Notes under the pieces: model-generated
What the model saw: the letters and a program-made list of their open reading frames with translations, nothing else
The model's database searches: none
What the model was told of the DNA's origin: nothing
Source of the DNA: Cyanidioschyzon merolae
Taxonomy: Eukaryota
DNA length: 64,000 nt
Assembly (NCBI GenBank): GCA_000091205.1
Contig: AP006502.2
Reading direction: 5' to 3' (one strand)
Made by a program: the position numbers and the translations under genes
Part shown: positions 4,977 to 63,117 of the stretch, in pieces
Position numbering within the stretch: position 1 is the first letter of the stretch
Layout of the letters: each line of letters starts with the position of its first letter

Positions 4977-7430
4977 TTTGGAGCTGGGCATCGAAATCCT
5001 TCAATACGATCGTCAAGCGTGCACGCTTTGTCACTTGTGACGTTCATGCTGGCAACTCATGACGTGCAGCAGACAATATGCCGTGATCGCTGGACAGCGT
5101 CGATATGCTGGACTGGCTCGCGACTGGCGCAGGACGCCGAGAACGCCCTTGTCGCACGGCGGCATGCGTACCCTGCACCCTTCTCAGATGCAGGTGCAAT
5201 ACTGAACTGCTTGCTCTGTGTGTGCTTTTCGATTTTCTCGAACTTTTTTTTCGATGTATGACTTGGCAGACCAAATACAGCAATGAAGGCAAACGGGTTC
5301 ATTCATAATTTTCGGACACCTGGTTGTTTACTGCTGGTCGTGCGTTAGACGTTTTGCCGCTGGAATTCGTTACGTCACTGGAATCAGGATGATTGGCAAT
5401 GCTTACGAAAAGTGTCCGTAAAATAATCGATATCAATATCCAGTGCAGACTTAAAAGCCCCACCTCTTTTCCCTACATAGAGCTTGCTCAGAATATGTAT
5501 TTTTCAGACTTTCGATCTTTATCACAAAAAGCAACTCGTGAGGGTAGGGATTTCCACCGCTGGACTGACGACCACGAAAAACTCGACTCTGTTCCTGGTC
5601 GACTTGTTCACAAACCCATACCGAAACTTCACAGCACCTCTCAGGTCAACTGATAATCTCCGCCGTTCTGAACCCAAATCATGCTCTGCTGGTGGCCATC
5701 GGTGAAACGCCATTCGACAACCGAGTGAACCCTCGAACGGGATCTTGTCCAAGAGGCTCCCGTCTCTTCTTTTCGCATCGAAAGGGGTCATTGGCTCGGA
5801 CTTGGGTCACCGCTTTGCACGGAGAATGCATAGCGGGATCAGCAGTTGCCGAATGGATCTCGAGCCTGAATTTCCGTCCCGATTACGCAGTTCATCGTGG
5901 ACAACATCGCGTACCATATGTATCCTCTATGGAGTCGAACGGCGTGCGCAGCAGACAGAGTACTCGGCGAGGGGATGCCCCAGAAGAAGGCCTGTGATCC
6001 TAGGGTACGGCACTGGGCGCGGAAACCGAGCAGACCATCGAGTCGCGCCTGCTGTAGCCGCGAGCGGCATGTGCTGGGCGCTGAACCGAACGTTCACGCG
6101 CAACAGAGCATCGCTCGGAGCGTAAGCTATGGTGGACATGTGGGAACACTTGCCCCAGTCTAGAGTCATCACTATAAAGCGAGCACAGATGCTGTACGCA
6201 AAGAAGATGGAAATCGCAAGCGAAGCACAGAGCGCAACGACCGTTTGTGAATGAAATGCGTCGACAAGAGTTGGAATCGGCACACTCGGGGCTCGAACAT
6301 CACCATGAATATCCTTCGAGTGCTGTCGCAAGAGCTGGATGGATACCTGCGACTGACAGATTCAACGCCGGAGATAAGAGAGACGAAAGACCATTCGAAG
6401 AAAAGCTCCCATTTGCTTTTGTTGATTGAAATGGGAAGCGATTCGAAGTTGAATGTGGACGCCCTAGTTAGCCAAGTGCACCCATTCTATTTGATGCTGA
6501 CGTGGGTGTAGCGCCTCGACTATCCGCTGCAAGCGGTCTGCTCTGCACCGCGCGATCAGCAGTGCGTGAAATAGTCCATGACACGACTTCAGCAGGAAAC
6601 ATGGATTCGTAAGCTGCTCAGGGTACAGGTTCCCGCTCTTGCCCGGCAATGTCGAGCCAACCCGTGCGGTATTGAGATCAATCCAGACCTGCAGCATCTC
6701 CGCCGAATACCTAGGTTCATCGGGTGTGTGGTTCCGGTACACATACCGTCTCCAGCTTCAGTGCCGTGCTACACGAGCGCGTTGGAGATTGGGTGCAAGG
6801 AAAGCGATCCTCCTTGGAAACGAACCAAAAAATATACGGAACGCATCGGCCTCCGCGAACGACCCAGCTTGCGACCCGCTGCAAAGCTTCTAGCGCCCTT
6901 TACAGGAACAGAAACACTTTTCCCGAGCTGTTTTCTGAAAGGAAACCCTCTTCCCGGTATGCCTCACTGCGAAGCGGGCCACCGGGCAGAAACTTCCCTC
7001 CCCGGACACTCCGTCGGAATGAGCGGATGCCCACTGCAGCTTATCGCTAGGCACTCATCGTGTAGGATCGATGCGTCGGAGCGGAATCCCGGGATGCGCC
7101 ACTGATTTCGGCAGCTACGATGAATCCCGCCGCTCCGTTCCATACCCCAAAGAAAATGCGCATGCTGCAGACCGCTCTCTCCGACGGGGCCAGAAATTCC
7201 ATTCTTCGGATAACTGTCTGAGAACCGAGCCTCGCGCCCACGCTTGCGGTGAAGGTATATGATGCGCCGTCGCCGCCGCTGCAGTCGCTATCACGCAAAG
7301 ACAGAGCGGCTCCGAGGCGCAGGTACGGTCATCCGCATGCGCAGTACACTGTTCGGGCGTGGCGTACGTAGTGCTGTGCATTTCAGAGTCGAGCGCTGGG
7401 CCCGCCATAGTGCTCGCTCGCCAACGAGCT

Positions 7431-24908: not shown

Positions 24909-26138
24909 TCACTGCCTCTTGGAAGCAGGCTTTGATGATTTGATTTTGAGTTTCTCTGAAACCGCGTCAGCACCGATCGCATCAGCGTTTGAAAGGCCCA
25001 TGAGTTTCTCAGTCTCTTCGTCAACTTTGCGCAACTGCGCGTTATCCTCCTGTAGTTTTTGTATCAGCGCCATTAACTGTGCCTTTTCTCGCTCCTGGCG
25101 CTCCAGCTGTGCCTTAAAATGTCGGATGAGTTCAGACATTTCGCGTTTCAACGTAAGGACCTCGATTTGGGCCTGGGCATTCTGCTCGCTTAGAACGCGA
25201 TTGCGCGCTTCCAGATCGTTCACCATGGCTCGGCGACGTTCACGGGAAGCGGCTGCAGCCTGGCGGTTTCGTTCCGCGCGTAGGCCATCGGGTACTCGGT
25301 CATTTGACGTAGCTTGCAACTGCTCGGCCGGCTCGCTTTCAAATCTCTTCCTGCTATCCAGGGCGTCAGCAGCGGTAACAGCTTCCGGGGCGCCACACGT
25401 TCGTGCCGAGTCTGACGCTGACCATGGACTTGGCTCTATTCGCTTCAGAGGGCTGGGCGATAAAAAGCTGGAGGCTGCCTCGTTCGCCACTGGTGCCTCC
25501 GTTTTAGTCTCTGACATCAATGGTCTTGTGGGGAGACGACCCATCGCGGGTCCAGCTGGATCATGTTCGGATCCGACATCCGAAACCACTCTCGCATCAA
25601 TCGCATTGTCCAGTGGAGTGTGAGGGCGTGGTCGTTTTGTGGCGCTGGCGGGTCGCTCGGCAACTTGGTTGCCTCCGAAGGAGCCCTCCTGACGGAGTAA
25701 CCTCACCAGTGGATCTTCGTCATCAACGAGTCCAGCAGAACTATTCTGCATCAGGAGTGTTGGCGATCCCAGTAGTTCCGTGGTCGTTGGCAAGCTGCGC
25801 AAATCTGTAAAAGGGAACTGAAAACTGAAATCGGACCCATTCAAGTTAAACGAAGTTGGCGGTGATAGGTTTTGCATGAAGTTCGGGAACGGATACCGTT
25901 GGCGCTGCGCTGCCGCCGCAGCCGCCACTGTGGCAACCGATGCAAGCTGCGCAAGCGCCGAGCTTGAACTTCCAAAGCTATCCGCGCTGCCGGGCGGGAC
26001 GTCTTCCCCGCTCCCTCGCTCAGGGAGCGAGCTCCCTTTCCTCGGAGTCTGTGTTGAGTTGCCCGGAAACGCCTGTGTTGCCAAGGACGCTCCGTCGTCA
26101 TCTTCAAAAACCGGGCCCCGCTGCCCACGAACGTTCAT
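24909..26138 (-). CDS. bZIP transcription factor
   Basis: C-terminal basic region RNRQAAAASRERRR (N-x3-AA-x2-SR-x2-R signature) followed by heptad leucines LEARNRVLSEQNAQAQIEVLTLKREMSEL. The N-terminus is long and low-complexity. ATG at 26136-26138 confirmed. Confidence 0.65.
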   Translation of the reverse strand: MNVRGQRGPVFEDDDGASLATQAFPGNSTQTPRKGSSLPERGSGEDVPPGSADSFGSSSSALAQLASVATVAAAAAAQRQRYPFPNFMQNLSPPTSFNLNGSDFSFQFPFTDLRSLPTTTELLGSPTLLMQNSSAGLVDDEDPLVRLLRQEGSFGGNQVAERPASATKRPRPHTPLDNAIDARVVSDVGSEHDPAGPAMGRLPTRPLMSETKTEAPVANEAASSFLSPSPLKRIEPSPWSASDSARTCGAPEAVTAADALDSRKRFESEPAEQLQATSNDRVPDGLRAERNRQAAAASRERRRAMVNDLEARNRVLSEQNAQAQIEVLTLKREMSELIRHFKAQLERQEREKAQLMALIQKLQEDNAQLRKVDEETEKLMGLSNADAIGADAVSEKLKIKSSKPASKRQ

Positions 26139-27186
26139 CAGCAGCGGCCGAGCTTAGCCCGAAGCGCAGGCCCCGAGGTTGCGCTGTGTGCTCAATGCTT
26201 ATGCCGCCTCCCAGGTGCGTCTGTTGTGCAAGCGTGTTACGGGACGCCCAGAACCCTGGAAGCGCGCACGTCGAAGCGGCCAGCCCTTTTGGTCAAGTCC
26301 CGCTTTTCAAGTACACACTCTTCCGTGCGACGTGTTCGCCTATGCGGTACTGGCCAATACGAGATACGCCCTGGTCGAAGGCAACCGCTGCTGTCTGGCA
26401 AGCTACGCAGCCGTGATGGCGCTTTCGGTACGGCACGGCACGGCATGGCACGGATACCATCGTGTCGACGGTGCGTGTCTCGGTGGCTGCTGTCTCATCT
26501 GCATGTCACGTGACATTTCGTGCTGCGCAGGAGATTGCCGGCATTGCCTTCGGTGCCGGTACCTCGATCGTTGCCTGCATTCGTCCGGCATCTTTTCGGG
26601 CCGAACTTACGTGAATCTACCCAGGGAACTCTGAGATACACGTTAAAGCTGGCGCTCCTTGCTACTGTCACCAAATGGAGCATTTGTGAGCTTTGTTTCC
26701 GCGACTGCTTCGTTTTCATCTGCCTTTTCTCTGGATTTAAATGCGATGGGCTCTTCTGTCTCTCCAGCTCCGTTGTCAGCAGTTGAAGGATGTTAATGAC
26801 AGCGTTCGAGTCCCGACATAAGTGCCTCCAGCTGTTGTTGGTGCATATCATGCACAGGCGGCAGTTGTTATCCATGCCGAGCATTTCATTTTCAACTTGT
26901 TTTGCATAGCATCGGTGTGCATTTTACAGCGGTGACACCCGGTTGTGGTCGGGAGTTCACCTGGGTCCATCACAGCTCCTCCTCCGAGCATCGCCTTTTG
27001 GAACATAAAGGCTCAAGGCATCGCGCGGTATATGCGCCTGAACTATGCAGAAGGCCGCCATGGATGACTTTCTTCGTTTCTGGACGTGGTACCGTCCCTT
27101 ACGATCAGTGGCTCCCTCTGGGCGATACGTTCGTCGCGTACGCCGCCGGATGCTCGCTCATGGGGCCGCTGTTCGAAACGACGGAA

Positions 27187-27964
27187 GATTTGTGGAACGC
27201 GATGTCGTTCATGATGATGAGAAAGGCACCGGAAGGATTATCCATGCCGGAGACAACGAAAAAGTCAGATCCGTTGATGCGCCCTTCGCGCTACGCGGTA
27301 GCAAGCGTTCCACGCGAAGCGACCGATGGAATGACGAAGATGCGAGTCCCAGGCCCTTTTCCGTACAAACAGAAGAGACGATTGCCCCTGGAGGCATGTC
27401 TGGGGCGGTGTATCTTGCGGGCACGGAATACGGGGCTCCGACGGCCACAAAGAGAAGCGGAGCACCCTGTCAAACGGAGCCCCGTGTTTGACGTCACAAG
27501 TTCAGTGAACTTTTAGCATGGGCGTGTCAACAGGTCATCAAAGGACAAAGTCGATTGATTCTTGCTCGCCAATTCAGGGGCGCGATATGCTACGGCCTCG
27601 AGTTGCGTCCAAGCAGAACTATCGAATAGTTGAAGAATGCGTGATTTGCGCGTGCTTGACGTAAAGAAACGAAAGGTTTCGTTGCTTGTCCATATCCACT
27701 GAAGACTGGTATCGGTTGCTTCACGGACGCTAGTTCGTTGGCGTCACGAACCATCTCGATTCCACTTGCAGTAACGTATTCCAGCGGGAACGCGTCGAGG
27801 GGGCCTCTCCTATACGAGAATCGAGGATCCTAAAACTAAGTATGTATCCTAAAACCGCAACTGTTGCACTTCTAATGTCGATGTCGTACATCTGCAAGCA
27901 AGTTCCGGAACATCGAATGCCAGGAACAAAGCGAGCAATTCAACATTCCATATCTATCTGACAC
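27187..27964. repeat. Direct repeat copy 1 (778 bp, about 98.5% identical to 33649-34426)
   Basis: Read directly: gatttgtggaacgcgatgtcgttcatgatgatga...catatctatctgacac occurs twice at a constant offset of 6462 bp with about 12 mismatches. The repeat contains TGACGTCA and aacgaaaggtttcgtt palindromes. Confidence 0.9.
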
Positions 27965-28883
27965 GGGATAGCATCTAAGGCACGACGCTACCACGCGTGC
28001 AACACGTTCCAGTACGCACAGCGCTATCCAGTACCATGCCAGATGGCGACCGACGGTCTGCATTTCGTGTGCGTTCAGGTGCAGCGTGCCGACGCCGATC
28101 GCACGGTCCGACCAAGATGCACAGGAACGTTCGGGTGCAATACGTCATCGGAAACATCGCATCGGTACACAAACGAGATCACCATGTGCTTCCCTAGGGT
28201 CGAAACTTTTCCCAAACGCCCCGTTTTCTTCCGTGTTCAATCAGGTCGCAAAGTGTCACGCAAGCAAGCTAGGCGGCGTCCTCGCGCCGCAGACACATGC
28301 AAAGGTGCTCAAGCGCGTCACTCTGAGCCTCTTCGAGAAGCTCTGCACGCCTGCGTCTACACCCTCAACTGATGCTGTGAATCATTTGCCACTGTCGCGA
28401 TTCCAAACGCACAAGCCACGCGTTTTCACAGGTTGAAATCATTGAATCTAACCGAATGCCAAGGTGTGCAGGTACTGCCTCTAGTGTCCGCGCAAGTCGC
28501 AGCTCCGCTACGGTCGCTTCTCGGTATGCTCAGCGTCAAACCCCTGTTGCCTGCTCGGAAAAATCCGTGTTTCGGGACCATGAGATCGTTCTCGCGAACG
28601 CTAAGATCGCTGATCACCCGAAAGTTTCAACATTCGGGACGGGATGCAAGCGTTAGACCCGAAGAACTACAGCATGGAAAAAGTTATCCATCAGTGCCTG
28701 GCACATGATCCACCGTGCCGGCTGATCGGTCGCGCCGATCCGCTCAACGGCAGGACGTTCGTGCCGCCCGGTGGCGTTTCCAGAATCCGGTGTATAAAGC
28801 GCCGTTGCCCAGACAAACTCGACCTGGCACTCAGGTGACCGGACAATTGTCGATTTTAGGGCAACTATAATTTTGCTTGACTT

Positions 28884-31130
28884 ATGGGAGGTGTCAGTGC
28901 GCACGAGCCGCCCGCAGCGTTTGTTATCGGTGCTTCTAGGAACAGGGTTCCGCAAGCGGACGGGACGCGTGCTTGCGTTTGGAAATCGAATTCAAGCTTC
29001 AGAGCGAGTAGGGTGCCTCGATTCAGGACTAGAATAACGTTATGGTGCGAATCAGATCGAGAAATCTTGAAGTACACTGGGAGCGAGGCGCCCCCAACCG
29101 CCAATGGCCACAACGCGCACACCGACTTGGGAGTTCAGCGTACCGGACAGGGTTTGATGTCGCACTTTCACGGGTCCAAGAACCCAGCACACTCCAACGG
29201 GCATCAACCCGTAGAACAAGGCATGAAGCACAGCGCTTCTGGGTTAAGCACGGGTCGAAGGGACGCTGGAACCGATGCGCAGCCCCGGCCGCCGGATGGT
29301 GCACCACCGCAGCAACGCGGCGCGCTGGAACCGGAACCGAACTCTCGTACAGGCGACTCGTCTGCGGTATCTGAGCGAGAGTCGATTTCGGTAACTCCCG
29401 ACGACTATTTGTCTGATTTACCAAGGAGCGTGGTCCTGGAGTCCTTGAGAGACGAATCGCTCAAGACGCTACTGTCTCCGTTGCCGAGGCCGGCACGCCT
29501 GCGGATAATTTTGATGGGGAAGCCCGCCTCTGGCAAAGGCACCCAGGCACCGCTTATCGCGCGTCGGTTTGGTATGGTCCACATATCATTGGGAACACTG
29601 TTGCGAAACGAGATACGCTCGAATACTGAACTCGGCCGCCTGACCAGCGAATATGTGCATCGTGGCGAGCTTGTTCCTGATGATCTTGCACTGGCTATCC
29701 TGAAAAAGCGACTCTCTCAAGAGGATTGCCGGAATAAGGGATTCATCTTGGATGGATTCCCCCGTACAGAGCGTCAGGCAGTTTTGCTTAATCGCGCCGG
29801 CATCGAGATCGACTACGTCATCGTACTCGAAAGACCTGACGAGGATTTGCTCGATTGGGCACGTGAGCGTCTCCTTGACCCGATTACGGGCATCATGTAT
29901 CACCCGCGGCTGGCGCCTCCGCCGCCGCACGTTGTTCACCGGCTCGAGCGCCGCTGCGACGATAAGCTGGAAATCGTGCACATGCGCTTGAGGCAGTATG
30001 CACAAGAGGCCCCAAAAATCATGGCCCAATATAGCGATCGACTTTCTATTGTGCGAACGGATAACACACGTCCGTACTTGGACACTTTTCGCGAGATCTC
30101 AGAGATTCTGGAACGCTTGATCCTCCCTCGAGACGATGAAGAGAAATGTGAAGTTCGTTTGGAAAGGACCGGCCTTTGGCGGCCGCGAGGCATACACCGC
30201 GTGGCACTTCCACGTGGCGCATTGTTCAAGGCCTTAGATTCGTTTGCACACCGCATAAGAGAGAGGGATTACGTACCGCTCTATGCGAGCACAGCTCAAG
30301 ATGCACCGCGGATCGGCCTTGTTGGACGCAACTGGGCCGCAGAGCTCCTATCCGCTGACACCGACCATGAAGTGTTTGACATTCAGCTGGAGACATGTTC
30401 AGTATTCGATGCCAGTGAGACCACAGACAGCGGATTTGTCCGTTTCCATGACGACGCTACGACGGAGAGACTGCAGCAAGTTATGCAGCGGATGCGAGAC
30501 CGCGGCCTCATCGAAGGTTGGCGAAACGAAAGGGTGCCGCTGCGGCTCGGTAATGGCCGGTACCTGGAAATTGAACGCGCCTGTATGCCGTACCTGGGCA
30601 TCGAGACGAGTGGTGTCCACATTAACGGCTACTTTTACAAAGCCGGACAAGACGGAAGACCGGAACTATTCGTGTGGCTGGCGCGTCGGTCTTGGAAAAA
30701 ACCGACATATCCGGGGCGCCTAGATCAGCTGACTGCTGGTGGTGTACCGGCCGCAGCGACCTCTGTGCTGCAGCAGGTCATGCTGGAGTTGTACGAGGAG
30801 GCGGCATATGTCGGTCCAGCGCCTGTCCCTGTCGGCTGTGTCCGCTACCGCTATGAGACGCGCAAAGGAATCTCAGCAAAAGTCCTGTATCTCTACGATT
30901 TAGAGCTTGAAGAGAACTGGAAACCCTACAACCATGATGGCGAAGTGGACGCGTTCTACGCTGTGAGCGCTGAGGAGGCGCTCGCGAGTCTAGTTGAGGC
31001 CCAGCATGAATGGAAGCCAAACTCGGCGCTGGTTCTCGTTGACTTTTTGGTTCGCCACGGTGTCTTGCATGCGGACAACGAACCGGACTATGCGGATATC
31101 ATAACTCGCTTGCACTGTTGCGGTATCTGA
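28884..31130 (+). CDS. Adenylate kinase domain fused to a C-terminal Nudix-like (DUF4743/YJR142W-type) domain
   Basis: AK domain at residues about 210-390: P-loop LMGKPASGKGTQ, ILDGFPRT, and LID-type RRCDDKLE. The C-terminus has GVHINGYFYK...KPTYPGRLDQLTAGGV plus a degenerate Nudix box LELYEEAAYVG (R-to-L, G-to-A). About 200 aa of N-terminal low complexity. ATG confirmed. Confidence 0.7.
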   Translation: MGGVSAHEPPAAFVIGASRNRVPQADGTRACVWKSNSSFRASRVPRFRTRITLWCESDREILKYTGSEAPPTANGHNAHTDLGVQRTGQGLMSHFHGSKNPAHSNGHQPVEQGMKHSASGLSTGRRDAGTDAQPRPPDGAPPQQRGALEPEPNSRTGDSSAVSERESISVTPDDYLSDLPRSVVLESLRDESLKTLLSPLPRPARLRIILMGKPASGKGTQAPLIARRFGMVHISLGTLLRNEIRSNTELGRLTSEYVHRGELVPDDLALAILKKRLSQEDCRNKGFILDGFPRTERQAVLLNRAGIEIDYVIVLERPDEDLLDWARERLLDPITGIMYHPRLAPPPPHVVHRLERRCDDKLEIVHMRLRQYAQEAPKIMAQYSDRLSIVRTDNTRPYLDTFREISEILERLILPRDDEEKCEVRLERTGLWRPRGIHRVALPRGALFKALDSFAHRIRERDYVPLYASTAQDAPRIGLVGRNWAAELLSADTDHEVFDIQLETCSVFDASETTDSGFVRFHDDATTERLQQVMQRMRDRGLIEGWRNERVPLRLGNGRYLEIERACMPYLGIETSGVHINGYFYKAGQDGRPELFVWLARRSWKKPTYPGRLDQLTAGGVPAAATSVLQQVMLELYEEAAYVGPAPVPVGCVRYRYETRKGISAKVLYLYDLELEENWKPYNHDGEVDAFYAVSAEEALASLVEAQHEWKPNSALVLVDFLVRHGVLHADNEPDYADIITRLHCCGI

Positions 31131-31415
31131 GGAGATCCGTATTCTATGCGTGCTGCCGCTGAAACCAGAGGAGAACGATGTACGCTGTGCTTGCCCCTGC
31201 GCTGGTTGGCTTCGGCATATGAACCGAGGTCGCCTACAACTGTTTGGACTGACGTTTTCCCCCCGAAGTTTCCGCGTACTTGGTTCGTTTTGGCGGCAGC
31301 ACGAGCATCATGTTGAAGCAGTAGATCCTTCGTTGCTTCGCTTCTTACTGAGCGGTTTGGATCCACAAGTTTCCGAGTAAATGCTCAAGCGAGCGAGTTA
31401 TTTTAACGTGGTTAC

Positions 31416-31420
31416 AAAAA
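31416..31420 (-). terminator. Pol III T5 terminator just 3' of tRNA-Lys
   Basis: A5 on the plus strand equals TTTTT on the tRNA strand, 7-11 nt after the discriminator base. Confidence 0.5.
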
Positions 31421-31426
31421 GGTATA

Positions 31427-31499
31427 CACCGCCAAAGGGGCTCGAACCCTTGACCCGTGGATTAAGAGTCCACTGCTCTACCGACTGAGCTATGGCGGT
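31427..31499 (-). tRNA. tRNA-Lys (anticodon CUU), 73 nt, no intron
   Basis: The reverse complement gives ACCGCCATAGCTCAGTCGGTAGAGCAGTGGACTCTTAATCCACGGGTCAAGGGTTCGAGCCCCTTTGGCGGTG. D arm GCTC/GAGC. Anticodon stem GTGGA/TCCAC with loop CTCTTAA. T arm AAGGG-TTCGAGC-CCCTT. Acceptor ACCGCCA/TGGCGGT (A1:U72). Confidence 0.9.
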
Positions 31500-33648
31500 A
31501 GTAGGAGATCTGGCGAGAATTTGATATATAAATAGGTTGGGGGTTTTGCGCGCAATTTGCGTGGCAAACGCACTGCTGCCAGCCATGATGTTGTCTCTTT
31601 TGTCTAGTATTCCATAGATGCGCGCCGTTGACGTCCGTGCGTTTGCGTTTTCCGGCTTTTGAACTCGATTATGTTCCAGCCCCGCTGCATGTAAAAGAGT
31701 GCTTTTTCGCAGTTCGTAGTGGGGGATCTGAATCGCTATGCAATTTTTTGTGTAGATCGTAGACGAATTGCCAGTAAGATATATTCCTCACTGAAACGTT
31801 CAAAGAGTACTGCATTCCTCCTTCAGTTCAATCATATCATAGTACACAGATAATTGAGGAATCTTGAAAGATGACAGATGCACTCCGCGCCAAAAACCGA
31901 TATTCCCACAGCGTCCATGCGGTCAACGGTAGACAACGACGCGTCGATCGCCTTACGAAAAGCGAAACCGACGATCATCGTCACCACGTGCGCATCAGAT
32001 ACGCACCAGCTTGCTCGTGTGGTCTTGAAAATACCAGGATGCAGTTCCAAAATATGTCCGATGACGCGACCTGCCATCTTCCACCGAAATTGCAACGATA
32101 GCGTTCCGGGGACTCCGCAATCGGTATAAAGCACAGGGACGTCGGTTTGGTTTCTCAGTCGATGGGAACTTCTTCGGACGAAACGATTGAAGCGTTTGGG
32201 GGGTTTCGCGGAGCAGGCAGCCTATTCAATGTAGGATCGAATTGGAAGAGAACGAGAACATCAGCATCTGTTCGAGCTGCAGTAGATACATTTGGCGGCT
32301 TCTGCTACGCTCGTAGAGAGGGCCCATGCAAGAGCACAAACCACTCTGTCGAACCATAGAAGACTTTTCGCCTGACGTCTAGCAGCGTCCTTCGATTCGA
32401 TCGCGCGTCATTTCACCGTTTTCCTTGCGTTCGAGCTTTTTCGGATTCCTTTGGGGTTGAGCTGCATTTCATTCCTTCGTACGCTCCGTGTTTTAACCCA
32501 TTCGAATGGGTTTTTCTATTGTGAAACGTAATGATTGCTCCACTGGGAGAATCGCGAAGCGTTCGGCATACGGTGACACACCAGAGACACATTTCATCTT
32601 TTTTGTGCAAGTACTTCTTCCTCCAAGAATATCCTCATCTAAGGACACACAGACCTGTGTTCATTTTAGAAAACTTAAAGGATGAGCTGGGGCCTGCACT
32701 TCAGAATGTCGTGATGGAGAGGCGGTAGCGGGGCGCATCGTCGATAGAATACCACGGTGAGCTGGGAGAGCACCAATTGACACACAGGATACGAGTTCGA
32801 GGACTTGTCGCATTGGTGAGTACCGCCAGCGGCAAGAAACGCTTCGAGTTCGTGCACCAAGACTCTAACGCCGCCATCCATATCAGAAGGTATACAGTGC
32901 TGAAGACGATACCAACAGAGCGGACGGAATGCAACCTTGAGGGGCAGCCTCCCAGGCTCGAAAAGTGCAATCAGAAGCTGAAACTGATAGCAGGGGGCCG
33001 GTCGAAGAAGGCTGAAAAGTGTCTCCACGTCGGTATTGCTTTACTGTATGGTCGCGGAATGTTCTCGCTCCTCTGAACGAGTGAAGTCCACCGACTCGAG
33101 CAACCATAGTTCAGCTGCAGTGTCTTTCCATCCGAATCAACAATAGCCATTACATGCTTTTTCTGCGACTGTTGCCTTTTCCTCTCGCTTGTCTCCGTTA
33201 TCTAATACGTGCGTTCCTGTCCCTCCAGCGTTGTTTTCAGTAGTCGAAAAGTGTTCGTGACAGTGTTCAAGTTCCGATTTCGCCGCTTCGGGCCGTTTTC
33301 CATGCATTTCATCCACAGGGAGTAGTTGCAGACTACGCTTCGCTTGCCATTCGCATCTTGTTTGTTTACAGATTCGACGCGCCCTTCGCAGCGGTGACAC
33401 ATAGTAACGATCATGAATGGGCACATGTGCCCATCAGCTCCCCTTACGTGTGCCGTCCTGTGGCGCATGAAGGCTTGTTTTCGCGTCCGGCTCATGCCTG
33501 TGACGTGTAAAGAGGGGTCCCAGGAATACCCTCCGCCGTTTTTGCGCCCGCTCTAGTACCGAAGGACGACGGGCTTCACCTGCGCGATATCCTCGGAGTG
33601 CATAATCCCCGCCACACGAGCGAGCACACGCTACTCCACTCGATAGAG

Positions 33649-34426
33649 GATTTGTGGAACGCGATGTCGTTCATGATGATGAAAAAGGCACCGGAAGGAT
33701 AATCCATGCCGGAGACAACGAAAAAGTCAGATCCGTTGATGCGCCCTTCGCGCTACGCGGTAGCAAGCGTTCCACGCGAAGCGACCGATGGAATGACGAA
33801 GATGCGAGTCCCAGGCCCTTTTCCGCACAAACAGAAGAGACGATTGCCCCTGGGGGCATGTCTGGGACGGCGTATCTTGCGGGCACGGAATACGGGGCTC
33901 CGACGGCCACAAAGAGAAGCGGAGCACCCTGTCAAACGGAGCCCCGTGTTTGACGTCACAAGTTCAGTGAACTTTTAGCATGGGCGTGTCAACAGGTCAT
34001 CAAAGGACAAAGTCGATTGATTCTTGCTCGCCAATTCAGGGGCGCGATATGCTACGGCCTCGAGTTGCGTCCAAGCAGAACTATCGAATAGTTGAAGAAT
34101 GCGTGATTTGCGCGTACTCGACGTAAAGAAACGAAAGGTTTCGTTGCTTGTCCATATCCACTGAAGACTGGTATCGGTTGCTTCACGGACGCTTGTTCGT
34201 TGGCGTCACGAACCATCTCGATTCCACTTGCAGTAACGTATTCCAGCGGGAACGCGTCGAGGGGGCCTCTCCTATACGAGAATCGAGGATCCTAAAACTA
34301 AGTATGTATCCTAAAACCGCAACTGTTGCACTTCTAATGTCGATGTCGTACATCTGCAAGCAAGTTCCGGAACATCGAATGACAGGAACAAAGCGAGCAA
34401 TTCAGCATTCCATATCTATCTGACAC
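33649..34426. repeat. Direct repeat copy 2 (778 bp)
   Basis: See copy 1. The older, more diverged homology (about 65%) continues upstream: 26780-27186 matches 33215-33648. Confidence 0.9.
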
Positions 34427-35343
34427 CAGCATTGCGGACATATGCGCGGCGGCAGGCCGCCCCAGCGTCTCGTGGCCAATCTCTCATGCTTTGGGGTAAC
34501 TGCAAGGTTACCGCCATTTCGAAAAAACCTATGATCAAGGCGGACGCTGTTACCATCAAGCTACCGAGCGCCCCGGATTGCTCTCGATGGGTCCTCTGTT
34601 GAGAATCTGGACTTGGCGGCACCAGCACGATACTATCCAGCTTCTTTGGTGGCGTTCAGAAATGACGCTTCAGAGACCCAGCGCCCTTTCGATAACGGTA
34701 GCCTGCCAAAGCCCGCACGCCTCGGTTCGCGAAACCATACTGCGTCCGTTCAGGCATCGCCGGCGCTCATTCTATCAGTCTAGCTCGTGCGACAACGGCG
34801 AGATAACCTCTAATGAGGGCCGTTTCTCCACCGCCCGTAAAGCATCAGCGTGTCGTTGTATTCGTAGACGGCACGGCGGGCGATCGTGGTGCGCTCTCTG
34901 AGTGACGCTCCGCGATAGCAGCAGGGGCGACGCTGGTCAAGCTTAGGTCGCAATTTGACTTGCGTTTCGATGATCGCCTTGGTCGTTGTTCAGTGCCGAG
35001 TGAGTGCTATTTGTATGTGCGAAGTAGCGAATGTGCGCTATCCCGCAGATGCTCATGACCTAGATTGATAGAGGAATATGGCATGTGCGCGCAAGCGCAG
35101 CGCTACGGCATCTCGCTGGCGGCGGCAAAGACGACTCACTCGCTCATCGCATGCCCAGCATACACCCTACTAGATACGCTCCGGTTCCGTACACATTTTG
35201 ACCACAAATCTGCGCGGTGTCACGGCTCCGTTCACGGCCTTTGTATGCCACGTCGACTAACTGAAAGCACAGCGGATCCTAGGTCGGAACAATAGATCCT
35301 TCATCTGCGAGCCATTGCCGTATCGATCACGTCATCAGATCGC

Positions 35344-36468
35344 TCAGGTTCGTGGTGATGCATGCCCCGTAGAGGCCGCGCTTTTGCCTACCGTGCGAAG
35401 CAGTCGAGTGTTGCTGTCGACATCGGCGGGCATCTCGACGTCACTGGGCTCACTTTCAGATCCGCTAAGACGCGACCCTGACCACGGGACCGATGTCGTT
35501 CCCTTGCTCTGAGACTGACTCTCCGATACGGCTTCCCGTGTCCACCAGAAAGACGCGAGTCTTCTTCTCAACCACGGATACACGCCGAAACACCACTCAG
35601 GATCATGCAGACGTTTCCAGTGCTCGGTCTGCAATTTTGAGAGATGCGCTGCAACCCAGCCCAACTGTTTCGTGCCGTGCCTAATAATTTTTCGGGACGC
35701 CCAGTTTATGAGCGATGCTGGAATAAACTTGATACGCGGATCGAATACACCCACCAGACGGACCCGAGTGCGACCCCGGGATACCGGATGCAGCTCGAAA
35801 CACGCTCGCGCTTCGACGGTGACGGAGCGTTGGTCTGCCACACGCTCGCGCATCCGTTCCGCTGCACGCCATGCCGCACCGTCAGCGGGGCGCACAGAGC
35901 GAATCACAATGTAAACGGACTGGCTGGGTTCATCGAGCGCATCAATGCCTCGCCCTACCAGGTAGATGGTGCGGTCCGCGAAGGGCCACGGCGCATAGAA
36001 GCGTGCGTAAACCGCACGTTGCACCCGTCCACTCGGAACCAGAAGTTTTATATCCCTCACATACCAAAAAAGCTGCCCGAAGAGATCCGGTTCAGCCAGT
36101 ACACAACAGAGGTTCTCGAGCGGTGCACTCAACTCCGCTGTGACGTGGTACTTGTGTAGGACACTGCCGGGAATCCTACGATATCGTACTATCATTCGTT
36201 TTGTTTGCACTGCTATTGAATAGGCGGGATCGCTTTCGTCATTTAAATCTTGGAGAAAAAGCGATAAGTCATCGGTTTCCCGGAAAATCTCCTCAATGAG
36301 GGGTCCGAAGCTCGCAGCACGCGCCGCAGTGATACCCTGCTGCACTAGAACTCGACGCGCAGCAAAGAGCTGCTCCTCCTCGTACAGCGCTCTGGCATCG
36401 GCTATCGCTGGGTTATCCCAGGCATCAAAATATATGCTATCTTCCGGGCCCTCCTCGAGTCTTTGCAT
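35344..36468 (-). CDS. START/Bet v1-like lipid-binding domain protein (StAR-related lipid transfer)
   Basis: IVRYRRIPGSVLHKYHVTAELSAPLENLCCV...WYVRDIKLL...RTIYLVGRGID...YIVIRSV...RACFELHP...RVRLVGVFDPRIKFIPASLINWASRKI follows the START-domain pattern by eye. ATG confirmed. Confidence 0.55.
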   Translation of the reverse strand: MQRLEEGPEDSIYFDAWDNPAIADARALYEEEQLFAARRVLVQQGITAARAASFGPLIEEIFRETDDLSLFLQDLNDESDPAYSIAVQTKRMIVRYRRIPGSVLHKYHVTAELSAPLENLCCVLAEPDLFGQLFWYVRDIKLLVPSGRVQRAVYARFYAPWPFADRTIYLVGRGIDALDEPSQSVYIVIRSVRPADGAAWRAAERMRERVADQRSVTVEARACFELHPVSRGRTRVRLVGVFDPRIKFIPASLINWASRKIIRHGTKQLGWVAAHLSKLQTEHWKRLHDPEWCFGVYPWLRRRLASFWWTREAVSESQSQSKGTTSVPWSGSRLSGSESEPSDVEMPADVDSNTRLLRTVGKSAASTGHASPRT

Positions 36469-52419: not shown

Positions 52420-53416
52420 TCAGAGGGTATAGCCGGTTTCGTTTTGCACTTGTGGGGAAGGCATGAGCGTACGTTTGCAGTGTTTTCAGCACGGATGGTG
52501 CTCGACGTGCCACAACGAGCGCGCCTGCGCGTTGCGTTGGGCTGCTTGTGCATCCCTTGTCTCGATTGGTGATGAGCGCTTAGATATAGCTACGCCTTTC
52601 AGAACCGTTTTGAACGGGTGCCATTCAAGTCAAGCGAAACAGGAGGACCCTTGATGTCTTCGAGGTGTCGGCAGCTGAGACGCGACATTTCGGCGAAAGC
52701 GCCTTCCATGTTCTTGACCCTCCTGCCTCGCGGGGCGGCACATTTCGTCTGCATAACTGCTGCTCATACTGGAGGCAGTCGTGTCGCTAGCAGCGCCCAA
52801 TATGCCCACATGCTTTCTGAAGGTGTGACATGTCCCAAAAACATCACTGCACGCTTGAATGAGCTGCTTTACAGCTCTCTAGTGTTCGTAAACGTTTCCT
52901 CCCAAACAGAGACGCCTAGTCGATGTCGAGAGTCCACCTGTATCCGTGTTCGATGAACATGAAAACTGAAATGCAAGCTCTGTTCCTGTTTTGCAATTAT
53001 TATCGAACGTTCTCGTTCATAGACAGCATCGAGACGACAAGTGCTGCAATACGGAATAACGGATTCACGCGTCGTTCCAGGATTTTCGGTCGTCTGTTTG
53101 ACTTGACTCCTTCGCCGCTTCGCCGCTGGATATCGTAACGTCACCGGATTTAAAACGATTCGCGACGCCTTCGAATGCGGTTTTATAAAATAACCAATAC
53201 GATTGTCAAATTCGTACGTGGAATCAACCAGTCCGCTCCTTTCGTTACGCGCAGCACGCGTGACTTCAGCGTGCCTCAAGTCTTCGTTTTTCCTATTTCA
53301 AGGCAATTCGTGGGCCCAGCAATGTGTATCTCTGGAATGGGGAGACAAGAAACGTGATTTCAAATCTTGACGACTTGTTCGCAAGCTCGCACCAAATCTT
53401 CGTTGAGCTTGTCATG

Positions 53417-53983
53417 TCAAAGAATAAATATATTCCGATCGAGAGACAAACTACTGCTCTCTATACATCCATCGATGGGACGGCATTCGACAGCATCAAA
53501 TACACCTCTCCGGGGATGCGCTTCCTGCGTCTCTCGTCTCTTCGGTTTGGATGGGAAAGGCTTTTGGACTCGGAATTCAGTCAGTCCAGCGATCGTTTCA
53601 CACGGAGTCGTTGTCACCGTTTTGCACGAGGAGAGCGTAGACAAATGCAAGTTTCTCATCTTATTTTCCAGGCAAATTTTCTCTTTCTGTATTTCTCTCA
53701 TCATGGACAACATTATTTTCCACGAATCATTTTTTGAATGCAATAGCGTACGCTTCCGTGTGCAGCGGACAGAGGACTCGCCCAGTATATCGTCCATGAG
53801 ATGTCTGGAATCATACGGTACAGGATCGGGCCCGAAAACGGAGAAAGACATCGAGAAGAGCCCTCTCTGCCCAGCATGGATGTGCCCCGAGCGATGAAGC
53901 ATGCGTTCACGCGCCACAGGGCTTGGCTTAGAAGTGTATATTTGACGGACGTATGCGCACACTTGAACAGAGCCGAAAGTCAC
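53417..53983 (-). CDS. Unknown-function protein, paralogue A of a two-member family (possibly a pseudogene, or begins further upstream without an AUG)
   Basis: Shares conserved blocks with the ORF at 61814-62455: LFSM, CTR(K/E)RTL(L/F)HSxxDSW, KxKRRE, and SSL(S)LDR. Confidence 0.35.
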   Translation of the reverse strand: MTFGSVQVCAYVRQIYTSKPSPVARERMLHRSGHIHAGQRGLFSMSFSVFGPDPVPYDSRHLMDDILGESSVRCTRKRTLLHSKNDSWKIMLSMMREIQKEKICLENKMRNLHLSTLSSCKTVTTTPCETIAGLTEFRVQKPFPSKPKRRETQEAHPRRGVFDAVECRPIDGCIESSSLSLDRNIFIL

Positions 53984-54542
53984 CGCTGCGAGGCGCGTAC
54001 CGATACTGGGTACAAAGACTATGATGATAGCGAGCCAAGCGTAGATGGCAACTCCCGTCTGTGCTTGGTAGGTGTCGCAAACAGCCAGACGCTGCCAAAT
54101 CGGGAATTCAATGCTGCCATCGCTACACGTCTACTGCTGCCATCGTAGCTCGGCGGAAGGGAGAGACCCCGCGTATTTAAAGCGTGGAATAAGACAGTGG
54201 AAATGAAAGCAATCGTGGAAGAAGTCGGCAAAGGCTGGTGTTGCTGATACAGGAAAAGACCCAGAGTTCAGAGCATACGGTGGAGCTAGGGGACCTGTCC
54301 CATTTTCATCTGACATGGTGTGTCTATCGGTGCGCGTGCACATTCCGCTCTAACGAAGCCGTGCATTCGTCTGGTAAAATAGGTCGGGCGTAATCCGTCA
54401 GACTTACGTCCCGTCTATAAGAGAGCAACGTTTCACTCTCGCGACTGTAATGAAGTGTTAAGAGTGGCTTTCGGCTGTCTCCGGGGCTTCTGGAGGTTTT
54501 ATTTCCGGACTCGTTGCAGCGTTTTTTCCCCTGGCCGCTTTC

Positions 54543-60839: not shown

Positions 60840-61813
60840 ACTTTACGTTTGTGGCGGAAGTTTCCCTGATCACGGCCCTTTTCGGGATGCAGGACGTCGC
60901 AGGTGTCGCGCAAGTTCGAACGTCGATTCGCGCACGAGTTGAACCGCCACGGGCGCCGGGTTACGGGCAGCCGACCTCCGCCTGCGTCAAGCCGGCGCCC
61001 GCAAGTCCATGGCGCAATCGTTCTCTTCTAGATTGCCGCACGGGGGGGGTCGTTGAACAGATTAGGCCTGAGCACTGAGGGCATACGCTAGACTAGATTG
61101 GGAGATGCCGAAAATCTGCGCAGGGAGTGGTGATCGGGCCCAGGATATCCAGCAGCGCCAGTGCGTTCGAGGGAGTGCATCGCTAGCGGAGCTATGCAGC
61201 GGCTTCGATGCTATTCGCTTTCGATCGTATGCACCCCGCAAGACGCGGAGAATTCGTCAGAGACACGTTCAGCGTGCGCGCCGCTGGTGAGCCGCTTCAG
61301 AGGCGGGTCCACGAGCGCACTACCTGTGTCTACTGGCTTGGGCTGTACCACAGGTCAGATAAAAGCGCAACATTGAACTGCTCAATCTGCTCCTGGCTGT
61401 CGAATTTTCCCGAAATTTTCTAAAAGCACACCCTCCACATTCCAAGTGCAGCAAGGTCTTACGGGTTCATGTATAGTTCCAGCATGCTCTGTCGTCATTT
61501 CAAAGGAACTCCTTCGCTGCTTGCCGCTGGAGTCCGTTTCCTCGCCGAAATCAAGATGATTTGGAACGTCCCTGAACAAGGGTATGTAACATCAGCGATA
61601 TCATCACAAGTTCACACGTTGAAGCTTCGACTCCTCTTTCCGTACTTCCAGCATGCCCATATCACGCATTCTTCATGCGTTTGCTCTTTCTGTTTTAAGG
61701 TAACTTGCGTGCGCAGCAATGCGCGAGGCTTGCTTGATGCGGCGAAAAGCTCGACGGCATTCGTTGACGACTTGTTCACGAGCTCTTGCCTAGGGTTCGC
61801 TGAACTTTTCAAC

Positions 61814-62455
61814 TCAAATAATCGGTTTCGTTCCAGAGTCAAATCCTCCCTGCTTTCTGTCCAGAGATGAAAGCGGATTCGACAGCAGCGGCATGGTACC
61901 TCTCACGTGATATGCTCCTGGTAGCTCCCGTCTCTTCAGTTTGCATGGAATGAGATCTTTGACTCCGACTTGAGTCATAGCAGTGATCGCTTTCTGTGAA
62001 GCATCCGTCATCGCGTTGTACGAAGAAAATCTAGAAGAATCGAAATTTCTCGACTTGTTCTGCAGTTGGGATTTCCCTCCGGATGCTCGGTTCATCGCGG
62101 GCAACATTGCGTTCCACGAATCCCTGATTGAATGGAACAGCGTGCGCTCGCGCGTGCACCAGATAGAGTACTCGTCGAGGGAATCCTCCAGAAGAAACCC
62201 GTGATCATGTAGAGCGGCATCGTGTGCGGAAACGGAGGAGAGCATCGAAAAGAGCCTTCTGTTCTCATGAAGGTCATGTACTGAGCTTTGCAGCGAGCAT
62301 TCATGCGCCACAGGCGAGTGTTCAGAGCTGGAGGTGGTGTCGCGGGCATATGAGAACACCTGACCACAGCCATGTGCCACCGTTGTGAGGCGCGTACCGA
62401 GGCTGTACACAAACAATATGAAACTGGAGAGCGACGCTTCGATCGCAGCTCCCAT
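61814..62455 (-). CDS. Unknown-function protein, paralogue B
   Basis: ATG at 62453-62455. Aligns with paralogue A at about 40% amino-acid identity across about 190 aa. Confidence 0.4.
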   Translation of the reverse strand: MGAAIEASLSSFILFVYSLGTRLTTVAHGCGQVFSYARDTTSSSEHSPVAHECSLQSSVHDLHENRRLFSMLSSVSAHDAALHDHGFLLEDSLDEYSIWCTRERTLFHSIRDSWNAMLPAMNRASGGKSQLQNKSRNFDSSRFSSYNAMTDASQKAITAMTQVGVKDLIPCKLKRRELPGAYHVRGTMPLLSNPLSSLDRKQGGFDSGTKPII

Positions 62456-63117
62456 CTCTGAATGAAATGCGCCAACAAGTACCTGACGCTGCGAAATCGG
62501 GACATGAATGCCGCTATCAACATCGCTCGAATGCCGGCAACGGAACTATAGGTCCTGGGGAGACCGGCGTATTTCAAACTGGAGATAAGACACGGAAAAG
62601 TAACCAGTCTCAGAAGAAGCTCCCACGGTCTAATGTTGATTACAATTGTAAGAGTCCTAAACTTTACAGTGCAAGCGCGAGATAGCTGAGTGAACCCCTT
62701 TATTTTAGTCTGACATGCGTCTAGAGCCCGCACCAGAAATCGCTGTCCATACTCAGCGATTCAGTTCGGCAGCGGGTAAGCATCGCGAGTGTATCGAGGC
62801 GGTAAGTATTCTGTTTATCGAAAGGGCATGTACTTTGAACACTTGCTGTCTCGAATACAGTACGTCAGCATCATAGACAGCTTTCTCGTCTGCACCGTGC
62901 CGGCAACGTTTCCGAGCATCCCATTCAGATAGCACGGATCACCATATGAGCGGATGTCTTAGCACGACGTATAGCATCGGTTCATACACTATTATCGATT
63001 AGTACGAGAAACCATGCCACAGCGTCGCCGATTTTCCCGCCAGCGATGCTGCACGCACGGCGGAATGCGCACTGGTCGCATCCGATCTGGCTTCGAGAGT
63101 TTTTCAGCAGGTGCGAT

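What the first reader, a model, noticed from the sequence alone, without database searches (positions are those of the whole stretch)
27187..34426. Two 778-bp near-identical direct repeats bracket a 5.7-kb segment carrying the AK-Nudix fusion gene and tRNA-Lys, with a mosaic divergence pattern
Copies at 27187-27964 and 33649-34426 differ at only about 12 positions. The homology continues for about 430 bp to the left of both copies (26780-27186 versus 33215-33648) at only about 65% identity, for example gttaatgacagcgttcgagtcccga versus gttcgtgacagtgttcaagttccga, and both contain cagcggtgacac. Identity stops abruptly at the right ends. A sharp step from about 65% to about 98.5% within one homologous unit is what gene conversion or recent re-copying of part of an older duplication produces. 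Direct repeats of this length can also mediate deletion or circularisation of the intervening gene plus tRNA. The repeat carries CRE-like TGACGTCA palindromes and a short-ORF-rich but unrecognisable interior. There is no gag/pol, so it is not a canonical LTR element.
Basis: seen in the sequence. Interest (0 to 1): 0.7.

Follow-up and report, generated by a model that had tools for sequence, protein, structure and literature searches.

The report
Gene-converted pair of Fanzor transposon relics

Summary
27184-27964 and 33646-34426 are 781 bp, with 12 mismatches and no gaps. Homology continues leftward for about 500 bp at only 58-61%, and identity stops abruptly on the right.

The window is C. 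merolae 10D, near gene CMT383C. The repeats are not LTRs. They are two of five copies in this window of a roughly 1.35-kb dispersed family ("family A"). All pairs are 57-64% identical, and all copies have stops in every frame. The 3' third of the family is a decayed Fanzor1/TnpB C-terminus: the consensus scores 30.3 bits on PF07282 against a cut-off of 26.3, and it links through metagenomic relatives to the published C. merolae Fanzor1 protein CMe-1p. The family is not the published CMe-1A element.

Only copies c2 and c3 share the near-identical 5' module. The best explanation is ectopic gene conversion between two old copies in the same orientation, 6.46 kb apart. Three strains show swapped and strain-specific shared alleles, which suggests continuing exchange.

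The tract evolves at the neutral rate between strains, has no Rfam hit, and was found only at these two loci. TGACGTCA is not enriched.

Verdict: an ordinary feature, and a new member of a known kind.

The parts
26639..27967 (-). Family A relic c2: a decayed, Fanzor1-derived, internally truncated element lying between the bZIP gene CMT383C and the AK-Nudix gene.
   Evidence: Sensitive self-BLAST aligns it to c1, c4 and c5 at 59-61% over about 1.3 kb (alignment A2). It has stops in all frames.
27187..27964 (-). c2 copy of the homogenised tract. It comprises the 5' module of the element plus the first 30-40 bp of the Fanzor remnant.
   Evidence: 98.5% identical to 33649-34426 with no gaps. It is only 57-58% identical to the same module of c1, c4 and c5. 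No protein, Rfam or other DNA match was found.
26690..27216 (-). c2 remnant of the Fanzor1 C-terminal half (GxGxxG-like block, E-x-TT, CxxC...CxxC, RDxNAxxNI).
   Evidence: tblastn hits with P0135 and P0136 at 27216-26926 and 26872-26690.
33075..34426 (-). Family A relic c3, in the same orientation as c2 and 6462 bp downstream of it.
   Evidence: Aligns to c1, c4 and c5 at 59-60% (A2).
33649..34426 (-). c3 copy of the homogenised tract.
33127..33687 (-). c3 remnant of the Fanzor1 C-terminal half.
   Evidence: tblastn: P0135 at 33678-33211 (E=1e-12), P0137 at 33687-33478 (E=2e-10), P0136 at 33390-33127.
28884..31130 (+). Adenylate kinase-Nudix fusion gene, a host gene lying between the two repeats.
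   Evidence: PF00406 and DUF4743. 100% identical to BAM83334.1. Syntenic in the sister species L004.
31426..31500 (-). tRNA-Lys(CUU), a host gene lying between the two repeats.
   Evidence: ARAGORN. Rfam RF00005, 71 bits. 100% conserved in L004-L007.
31709..33049 (+). CMe-1-like Fanzor1 relic (3' half). Its 3' end lies about 25 bp from the 3' end of c3.
   Evidence: CMe-1A consensus 2737-3092 matches 32682-33034 at 68.5%. CMe-1p residues 612-729 are 52.5% identical at the protein level. It is an inverted paralogue of 37229-38407.
5172..6515 (+). Family A relic c1.
52937..54317 (+). Family A relic c4.
61354..62728 (+). Family A relic c5, the best-preserved Fanzor remnant of the five.
   Evidence: Pfam PF07282 E=7.8e-5. 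tblastn with P0135 E=1.3e-22.

Best explanation
The two repeats are copies c2 and c3 of an old, dead, dispersed repeat family ('family A', about 1.35 kb) of C. merolae. Each unit has two modules: a 5' module of about 780 bp of unknown nature, and a 3' module of about 560 bp that is the decayed C-terminal (RuvC/zinc-ribbon) half of a Fanzor1/TnpB-type protein. The unit looks like an internally truncated, non-autonomous derivative of a Fanzor1 element.

c2 and c3 are independent ancient copies. Outside the tract they are as divergent from each other (58%) as any two family members. They lie in the same orientation, 6.46 kb apart, on either side of the AK-Nudix and tRNA-Lys genes.

At about the time the sampled strains diverged (1.5% paralogue divergence against roughly 0.9-1% between strains), a double-strand-break repair event copied 781 bp from one copy into the other. 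This was non-allelic (ectopic) gene conversion without crossover. The tract runs from an internal conserved block to within about 10-14 nt of the element's 5' end. Allele patterns in three strains suggest that short conversion events have continued since. A crossover would delete the interior, which probably explains why only non-crossover products are seen.

Shown: the anatomy, the family membership, the two-copy status of the tract, and its neutral rate of change. Inferred: the conversion mechanism, its direction and its timing.
For: 1. Family. There are five copies in the window, 57-64% identical pairwise in both modules. The only exception is c2/c3 in the 5' module, at 98.5% with 0 gaps.
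2. Decay. There are stops in all frames, and tblastx scores are alike in all six frames.
3. Fanzor identity. The consensus C-terminal peptide hits PF07282 at 30.3 bits (cut-off 26.3), E=4.7e-7. It carries the Bao & Jurka motif [TS][TS]-x-x-C4-x(5,50)-RD. All five copies hit the metagenomic Fanzor-like proteins P0135/P0136/P0137 (best E=1.3e-22). The relative repaired from L012 aligns colinearly with the published C. merolae Fanzor1 protein CMe-1p, residues 426-688, E=9e-11, and scores 27.3 bits on PF07282. The consensus compared directly with CMe-1p gives E=1e-4.
4. Only the tract is homogenised, and the flanking DNA is not duplicated.
5. A 30-mer from the tract occurs only in c2 and c3 contexts in the metagenome collection.
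6. Exchange. Alleles at 27221/27239 sit in c3 in strain 10D but in c2 in L001 and L008, and these sites are phased by their nearness to unique sequence. Alleles at 27412, 27459 and 27653 are strain-specific yet present in both paralogues. Paralogue differences are 12, 3 and 1 in the three strains, against 4-10 between orthologues.
7. No constraint. Between-strain divergence of the tracts is 0.5-1.3%, like other non-coding DNA (0.9-1.6%) and unlike coding sequence (0.2-0.5%).
8. The organism repairs by homologous recombination and recombines direct repeats (PMC13353863).
Against: 1. At the time of the event the two copies were only about 60% identical. That is poor substrate for canonical homologous recombination, so the event must have been anchored on short conserved blocks or microhomology. 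The boundaries lie next to blocks at about the 86th-88th percentile of family conservation, which is only weak support.
2. The right boundary is so close to the element terminus (about 10-14 nt, poorly resolved) that a transposition-type copying process cannot be excluded.
3. The within-strain homogeneity in L001 and L011 could partly reflect collapse of the repeat by short-read metagenome assemblers.
4. The whole 10D genome could not be searched. The metagenome collection scanned is incomplete: it did not return L002 or L003, which also carry the tract.
5. The nature of the 5' module is unknown.
Confidence: 0.75

Rival explanations
1. The 781-bp tract is a young, short, non-autonomous element. 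It would be the 5' module of family A moving on its own, as TE-N2_CMe equals the 5' 635 bp of CMe-1A. It was recently copied to both loci by a transposition-linked or template-switching process rather than by gene conversion.
For: Bao & Jurka 2013 describe exactly such a relation in this genome: the 5' 635 bp of CMe-1A is 95% identical to TE-N2_CMe, which has about 70 copies. One end of the tract is within about 10-14 nt of the element terminus. The other end is only 30-40 bp from where Fanzor homology starts, which is the module junction.
Against: The tract joins the old 3' modules exactly in register in both copies (A2). That requires homology-guided replacement, not insertion. No third copy was found in the metagenome scan or elsewhere in the window. 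In c1, c4 and c5 the same module is as old as the rest of the unit.
Confidence: 0.13
2. The 781-bp module is a functional sequence, such as a regulatory module or an unannotated RNA or protein gene. Selection keeps it nearly identical in two copies while the neighbouring sequence decays.
For: c2 lies in the divergent promoter region between the bZIP and AK genes. Each copy holds one TGACGTCA. Metagenome gene callers predict a 148-aa ORF at 27045-27491.
Against: Between-strain divergence of the tract is as high as in other non-coding DNA. There is no Rfam or Pfam match. TGACGTCA is at chance level. The ORF is truncated to 90-99 aa in c3, and the 10D annotation has no gene there: BAM83333, BAM83334 and BAM83335 are consecutive. 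Nothing alignable exists in the syntenic region of the sister species. c1, c4 and c5 are only about 58% identical in this module.
Confidence: 0.04
3. Assembly artefact: a single repeat copy was wrongly placed twice, or a collapsed or expanded tandem unit.
For: One metagenome contig (L003) is a circular permutation of the 6462-bp period.
Against: The 10D genome is a finished reference, and the two copies differ at 12 sites. L001 and L011 (contigs longer than 120 kb) carry both copies at the same spacing. L008 and L002 each span one copy with both unique flanks.
Confidence: 0.02
4. The pair are LTRs of a retroelement or another composite mobile unit that carries the AK and tRNA genes.
For: They are direct repeats of LTR-like size bracketing 5.7 kb.
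Against: There is no gag or pol. The interior genes are in conserved synteny (bZIP - AK - tRNA-Lys - START gene) in a sister species that lacks the repeats. The repeats are parts of longer 1.35-kb units that also occur singly elsewhere.
Confidence: 0.01

Closest known systems
Fanzor1 elements of C. merolae (CMe-1A, protein CMe-1p; Bao & Jurka 2013, PMC3627910)
   Same: Same genome. Family A has the same C-terminal protein layout: LY..(K/E)QRA(F/L)A, YG.G, E..T(T/S), and RDxNAAINI. It has no terminal inverted repeats, its copies are old and diverged, and it has a long non-coding 5' module. CMe-1-type relics lie next to c3 and elsewhere in the window.
   Different: Family A has no DNA similarity to the 3169-bp CMe-1A consensus. 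Its units are only about 1.35 kb. They lack the N-terminal two-thirds of the protein, including the RuvC-I Asp. Unlike CMe-1p, family A keeps a canonical CxxC...CxxC ribbon: 30.3 bits on PF07282 against 11 bits for CMe-1p. The paper lists only one Fanzor family for this species.
Non-allelic (ectopic) gene conversion and concerted evolution between dispersed or duplicated repeats. Known from memory for yeast Ty/delta elements, human segmental duplications and other paralogues.
   Same: A sharp-edged block of near-identity inside otherwise diverged paralogues. Flanks are not duplicated. Alleles are shared by paralogues within a strain. The repeats lie on one chromosome a few kb apart.
   Different: The partners were only about 60% identical, far below the identity usually thought necessary. 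One tract end almost reaches the end of homology.
TE-N2_CMe / CMe-1A relation (5' 635 bp shared at 95%; Bao & Jurka 2013)
   Same: A 5' non-coding module of a Fanzor element that behaves as a unit distinct from the coding part.
   Different: TE-N2_CMe is a stand-alone element with about 70 copies. The 781-bp tract here was found only attached, in register, to two old 3' modules.
TnpB/IS200-IS605 'homing', in which nuclease-induced breaks are repaired from a copy that still carries the element (recalled from memory; not tested here)
   Same: It involves a TnpB-family nuclease gene and copying of element sequence by homology-directed repair.
   Different: All Fanzor remnants in the window are dead. 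No guide RNA or target relation was examined. Homing restores whole elements using flanking homology, not a partial internal tract.

Membership tests
Fanzor1 / TnpB-like element | C-terminal motif [TS][TS]-x-x-[C4 zinc finger]-x(5,50)-RD (Bao & Jurka 2013) | tested here: met
   The consensus reads ...EHLTT-AE-CHRC...(24 aa)...C(M)KC-9 aa-NRDLNAAMNI. Individual copies keep parts of the motif, with stops or substitutions.
Fanzor1 / TnpB-like element | Match to the TnpB/Cas12f zinc-ribbon (TNB) domain PF07282 above Pfam's gathering score | tested here: met
   The consensus peptide scores 30.3 bits against a cut-off of 26.3, E=4.7e-7. The single copy c5 scores 23.2 bits, below the cut-off. The relative from L012 scores 27.3 bits.
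Fanzor1 / TnpB-like element | Sequence similarity to an established Fanzor1 protein | tested here: met
   Consensus vs CMe-1p residues 534-721 gives E=1e-4 and is colinear. Transitive link: window copies vs P0135/P0137 reach E=1e-22, and the L012 relative vs CMe-1p residues 426-688 gives E=9e-11.
Fanzor1 / TnpB-like element | RuvC-I aspartate (DPG block) 125-275 aa upstream of the TS motif, and the N-terminal WED/REC part | tested here: not met
   P0137 residues 1-156 (which include GLDPGRVNLY) and CMe-1p residues 1-530 have no match in any family A copy. Homology starts at about 27216/33687.
Fanzor1 / TnpB-like element | Intact ORF, i.e. a potentially active nuclease | tested here: not met
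   There are stops and frameshifts in every copy and even in the consensus. tblastx scores are equal in all six frames.
CMe-1A family (Repbase/Bao & Jurka) | DNA similarity to the 3169-bp CMe-1A consensus | tested here: not met
   CMe-1A matches 36585-37218, 32682-33034 and 37247-37594, but none of the five family A copies.
Ectopic gene-conversion tract | Abrupt block of near-identity inside paralogues that are otherwise as divergent as unrelated family members | tested here: met
   98.5% identity in the tract against 57.7% in the rest of the same pair. All other pairs are 57-64% in both modules.
Ectopic gene-conversion tract | Both tract ends lie inside homologous sequence, and no flanking unique DNA is co-duplicated | tested here: inconclusive
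   The left end is clearly internal. The right end is about 10-14 nt from the apparent family terminus, and that stretch is weakly alignable. No flank is duplicated.
Ectopic gene-conversion tract | Paralogues share derived alleles within a lineage, or alleles swap between paralogues across lineages | tested here: met
   Sites 27221/27239 are swapped between c2 and c3 in 10D compared with L001/L008. Sites 27412, 27459 and 27653 are strain-specific in both copies. Caveat: the metagenome assemblies may have collapsed internal sites.
Young multicopy dispersed repeat | Many near-identical copies at unrelated loci | tested here: not met
   A 30-mer from the tract was found only in c2 and c3 contexts, and there is no other copy in the window. 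The whole genome was not searchable.
LTR retrotransposon | gag/pol (or a remnant) between the repeats, and insertion relative to an empty orthologous site | tested here: not met
   The interior holds AK-Nudix, tRNA-Lys and a Fanzor relic. The host genes are syntenic in a sister species.

The most novel reading that the evidence does not exclude
The tract may be a footprint of something more active than passive repair. One version: breaks made by a still-active Fanzor-type RNA-guided nuclease elsewhere in the genome, at or near the conserved 5' end of family A relics, drive repeated homology-directed copying between relics. That would explain why the tract runs almost exactly to the element terminus and why exchange seems to be ongoing. 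A second version: the 781-bp direct repeats support reversible pop-out of a 6.46-kb circle carrying AK-Nudix and tRNA-Lys, as hinted by the circularly permuted contig L003.
Probability: 0.06. Interest if true: 0.55.

Novelty: new member of a known kind. Interest (0 to 1): 0.25.

Why it matters
Mainly as annotation and housekeeping. It explains an odd-looking pair of repeats in a finished model genome as transposon relics plus gene conversion.

It also shows that C. merolae holds at least one more Fanzor1-derived repeat family than the single one reported in 2013. About a quarter of this 64-kb window is Fanzor debris.

Two smaller points follow. Conversion between partners only about 60% identical is a useful data point on how permissive recombination is in an organism valued for gene targeting. 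And a 781-bp direct repeat around what is probably an essential tRNA/kinase pair is a natural substrate for measuring pop-out and conversion rates, now that sexual crosses and phased genomes exist for this species.

Tried and rejected
1. LTR or composite element: rejected on synteny and family structure.
2. Coding gene in the tract: Pfam found nothing on the ORFs of both strands. An exact look-up shows the 148-aa ORF is called only by metagenome pipelines, not in the 10D annotation.
3. ncRNA: Rfam at E<=1 finds only the tRNA.
4. CRE enrichment: not significant.
5. Tandem repeats: none relevant.
6. Identity with the published CMe-1A: rejected.
7. PDB sequence search with the consensus peptide: no hit.
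8. Search for the 5' module elsewhere (masked window, CMe-1A, L012, L004): nothing.
9. Orthologous relics in the sister species: none detectable. Only the tRNA aligns in the intergenic DNA.
10. 'Tract bounded by the family's best-conserved blocks': only weakly true, at about the 86th-88th percentile, with several equally conserved blocks elsewhere.
11. Exact look-up of the AK protein's contig in the assembly index failed, both for the window ORF and for the 10D protein P0128. The chromosome context therefore rests on protein identity and on consecutive accessions.
Full report
**Observation.** A self-comparison of the window reproduces the finding. 27184-27964 and 33646-34426 align over 781 bp with 12 mismatches and no gaps, 98.46% identical (alignment A1). 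With relaxed scoring the homology continues to the left: 26696-27198 vs 33160-33660 is 61% identical over 508 columns with 7 gaps, E=1.7e-37. To the right, identity ends within a few bases of 27964/34426. Between the copies lie an adenylate kinase-Nudix ORF at 28884-31130 (PF00406 plus DUF4743; homologues with PF00293) and tRNA-Lys(CUU) at 31426-31500 on the minus strand. TGACGTCA occurs once per copy. The window total is 3 against 1.45 expected, and 16 of 100 shuffles reach that, so it is not notable.

**Source and reliability.** The AK-Nudix ORF is 100% identical to BAM83334.1 of Cyanidioschyzon merolae 10D, which lies on a 1.62-Mb record. The flanking ORFs are BAM83333.1 (CMT383C, bZIP) and BAM83335.1 (START domain). 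These accessions are consecutive, so the reference annotation has no gene in either repeat. Metagenome contigs from relatives about 0.9% divergent carry the same structure. L001 (142 kb) and L011 (122 kb) hold both copies 6462 bp apart, and L008 and L002 each span one copy with both unique flanks. The arrangement is therefore real.

**What the repeats are.** A more sensitive self-BLAST shows that the two repeats belong to a family of about 1.35 kb with five copies in this window:
- c1 at 5172-6515 (+)
- c2 at 26639-27967 (-)
- c3 at 33075-34426 (-)
- c4 at 52937-54317 (+)
- c5 at 61354-62728 (+)

(alignment A2). Measured separately for the 5' 780 bp and the 3' 540 bp of the unit, all pairs are 57-64% identical in both parts. 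The only exception is c2/c3 in the 5' part, at 98.5% with no gaps. In the 3' part c2/c3 are 57.7% identical, no closer than any other pair. Every copy, and even the majority consensus, has stops in all frames. tblastx between copies scores alike in all six frames. These are neutrally decayed relics.

**Fanzor identity of the 3' module.** In element orientation, the consensus of the 3' module reads ...LY.VEQRALARAADR...PVILRYGTGRGNGEGH...VVDICEHLTTAECHRCEART...C.KC...NRDLNAAMNILRLL. This is the motif [TS][TS]-x-x-C4-x(5,50)-RD that Bao & Jurka (PMC3627910) used to define Fanzor/TnpB proteins.
- The peptide hits Pfam PF07282 (Cas12f1-like TNB, formerly OrfB_Zn_ribbon) at 30.3 bits, above the 26.3 cut-off, E=4.7e-7. 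The single copy c5 reaches 23.2 bits.
- A search of 5.8 billion proteins with the peptide found three metagenomic fragments, P0135-P0137. By tblastn they match all five copies: c5 at E=1.3e-22, c3 at 33678-33211 with E=1e-12, and c2 at 27216-26926 and 26872-26690.
- The element behind P0137 (locus L012, another cyanidialean genome) was repaired at one frameshift. It then aligns colinearly with the published C. merolae Fanzor1 protein CMe-1p from the RuvC-I DPG block to NRDFNAAINI (residues 426-688, E=9e-11), and it passes PF07282.

Family A is thus Fanzor1-derived, but it is not the published CMe-1A. I copied that 3169-bp consensus from the paper's supplement. It matches other places in the window and none of the family A copies.

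**The 5' module.** Fanzor homology in family A starts only at about 27216/33687. That is 30-40 bp inside the high-identity tract. The remaining roughly 750 bp of the 5' module match nothing: no protein, no Rfam family, no other DNA in the window, not CMe-1A, and not L012. A 1.35-kb unit cannot encode a Fanzor1 of about 700 aa, and the RuvC-I aspartate is absent. I infer that family A is an internally truncated, non-autonomous derivative: a 5' leader plus the last roughly 185 codons and the 3' end. This echoes the long non-coding 5' region of CMe-1A and its stand-alone TE-N2_CMe module.

**How the mosaic arose.** c2 and c3 are old, independent family members, so the 781-bp block must have been homogenised later. 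Ectopic gene conversion without crossover fits the evidence:
- The block joins the divergent 3' modules exactly in register.
- No flanking unique DNA is co-duplicated.
- A 30-mer from the tract occurs only in c2 and c3 contexts in the scanned metagenome collection. That collection is incomplete, since it did not return L002 or L003.
- The left boundary lies in one of the better-conserved blocks of the family. The right boundary lies about 10-14 nt inside the apparent 5' terminus. The boundary evidence is weak.

**Evidence from three strains.** c2 and c3 differ at 12 sites in 10D, 3 in L001 and 1 in L011, while orthologues differ at 4-10 sites. The allele pair at 27221/27239 sits in c3 in 10D but in c2 in L001 and L008. 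These sites are within 35-53 bp of unique sequence, so their phase is trustworthy. Alleles at 27412, 27459 and 27653 are strain-specific yet present in both paralogues. This points to continuing exchange, although collapse of internal sites by short-read assemblers could inflate it.

**No sign of constraint.** The tract diverges between strains as fast as other non-coding DNA: 0.5-1.3% against 0.9-1.6%, with coding sequence at 0.2-0.5%. Nothing alignable exists in the syntenic region of a sister species, where the AK protein is 69% identical.

**Comparison with the sister species.** There the tRNA-to-START spacer is 1198 bp, against 3843 bp in 10D. The difference of 2645 bp is close to the sum of the CMe-1-like relic (1341 bp) and c3 (1352 bp). 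This is consistent with both being insertions in the C. merolae lineage (inference).

**Consequences.** C. merolae integrates DNA by homologous recombination, and intrachromosomal recombination between direct repeats excises the intervening DNA in strain 10D (PMC13353863). A crossover between c2 and c3 would remove AK-Nudix and tRNA-Lys. All sampled strains keep the interior, which suggests such deletions are selected against, leaving only non-crossover products visible (inference).

**Weak points.**
- The partners were only about 60% identical when the event occurred, which is unusually low for recombination.
- The near-terminal right boundary leaves room for a transposition-linked or template-switch copying of the 5' module (rival, about 0.13).
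- The whole genome could not be searched.

**Verdict.** It is not a local duplication and not a regulatory palindrome-bearing unit. It is ordinary biology. The only modest novelty is a Fanzor-derived family not matching the one published for this species.

Noticed in passing
window 21009-23986 (+) and 55433-58389 (-): A 3-kb inverted pair, 59% identical. These are relics of another Fanzor1 family: CMe-1p residues 353-688 match 22783-23736 at 26% (E=3e-14), and residues 403-663 match 56519-55742 (E=5e-24).
   Followed up: partly
window 36585-37218 (+): An 80.7% match to the first 633 bp of the CMe-1A consensus, which is the TE-N2_CMe module of Bao & Jurka. It lies between the START-domain gene and a CMe-1-like relic.
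   Followed up: partly
window 31709-33049 (+) and 37229-38407 (-): Two CMe-1-like 3' halves, 64-67% identical to each other. Both stop at about consensus position 3095 of CMe-1A. Each has the 3' end of a different element facing it tail-to-tail within 10-25 bp: c3 at 33075 and the TE-N2-like piece at 37218. This may reflect a target preference for Fanzor-element 3' ends. It is unexplained.
   Followed up: no
L003 (JGI 3300025503, 6355 bp): The contig reads window 28775-34426 and then continues into 27965-28667. It is a near-complete circular permutation of the 6462-bp repeat period. The most likely cause is a loop in the assembly graph through the collapsed repeat, but it is also what a pop-out circle or a tandem duplication would give. 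L008 also ends at 28669, so assemblies tend to break there.
   Followed up: partly
whole window: Fanzor-derived relics cover roughly 16 of the 64 kb: five family A copies, two 3-kb family B copies, two CMe-1-like halves and one TE-N2-like piece. That is dense for a genome usually described as repeat-poor.
   Followed up: no
L004-L007 vs window 24900-36500: A sister species (AK protein 69% identical; includes NCBI GCA_041825655.1) keeps the order bZIP - AK-Nudix - tRNA-Lys - START gene. Its tRNA-Lys is 100% identical, and there is no detectable repeat relic within 10 kb.
   Followed up: yes
L012 about 6001-7130 (JGI 3300031217): A relative of family A in another cyanidialean genome encodes a Fanzor1-like reading frame of about 376 aa, broken by a single frameshift. 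It runs from the DPG block to NRDFNAAINI, next to a Peptidase_M16 gene. This could be a recently active short Fanzor.
   Followed up: partly
window 27045-27491 (+): A 148-aa ORF antisense to the Fanzor remnant, spanning the tract boundary. Metagenome pipelines call it as 'hypothetical protein' (13 cluster members, 99 aa in the c3 version). It is absent from the 10D annotation and has no Pfam match. It is probably a spurious call in GC-rich DNA.
   Followed up: yes
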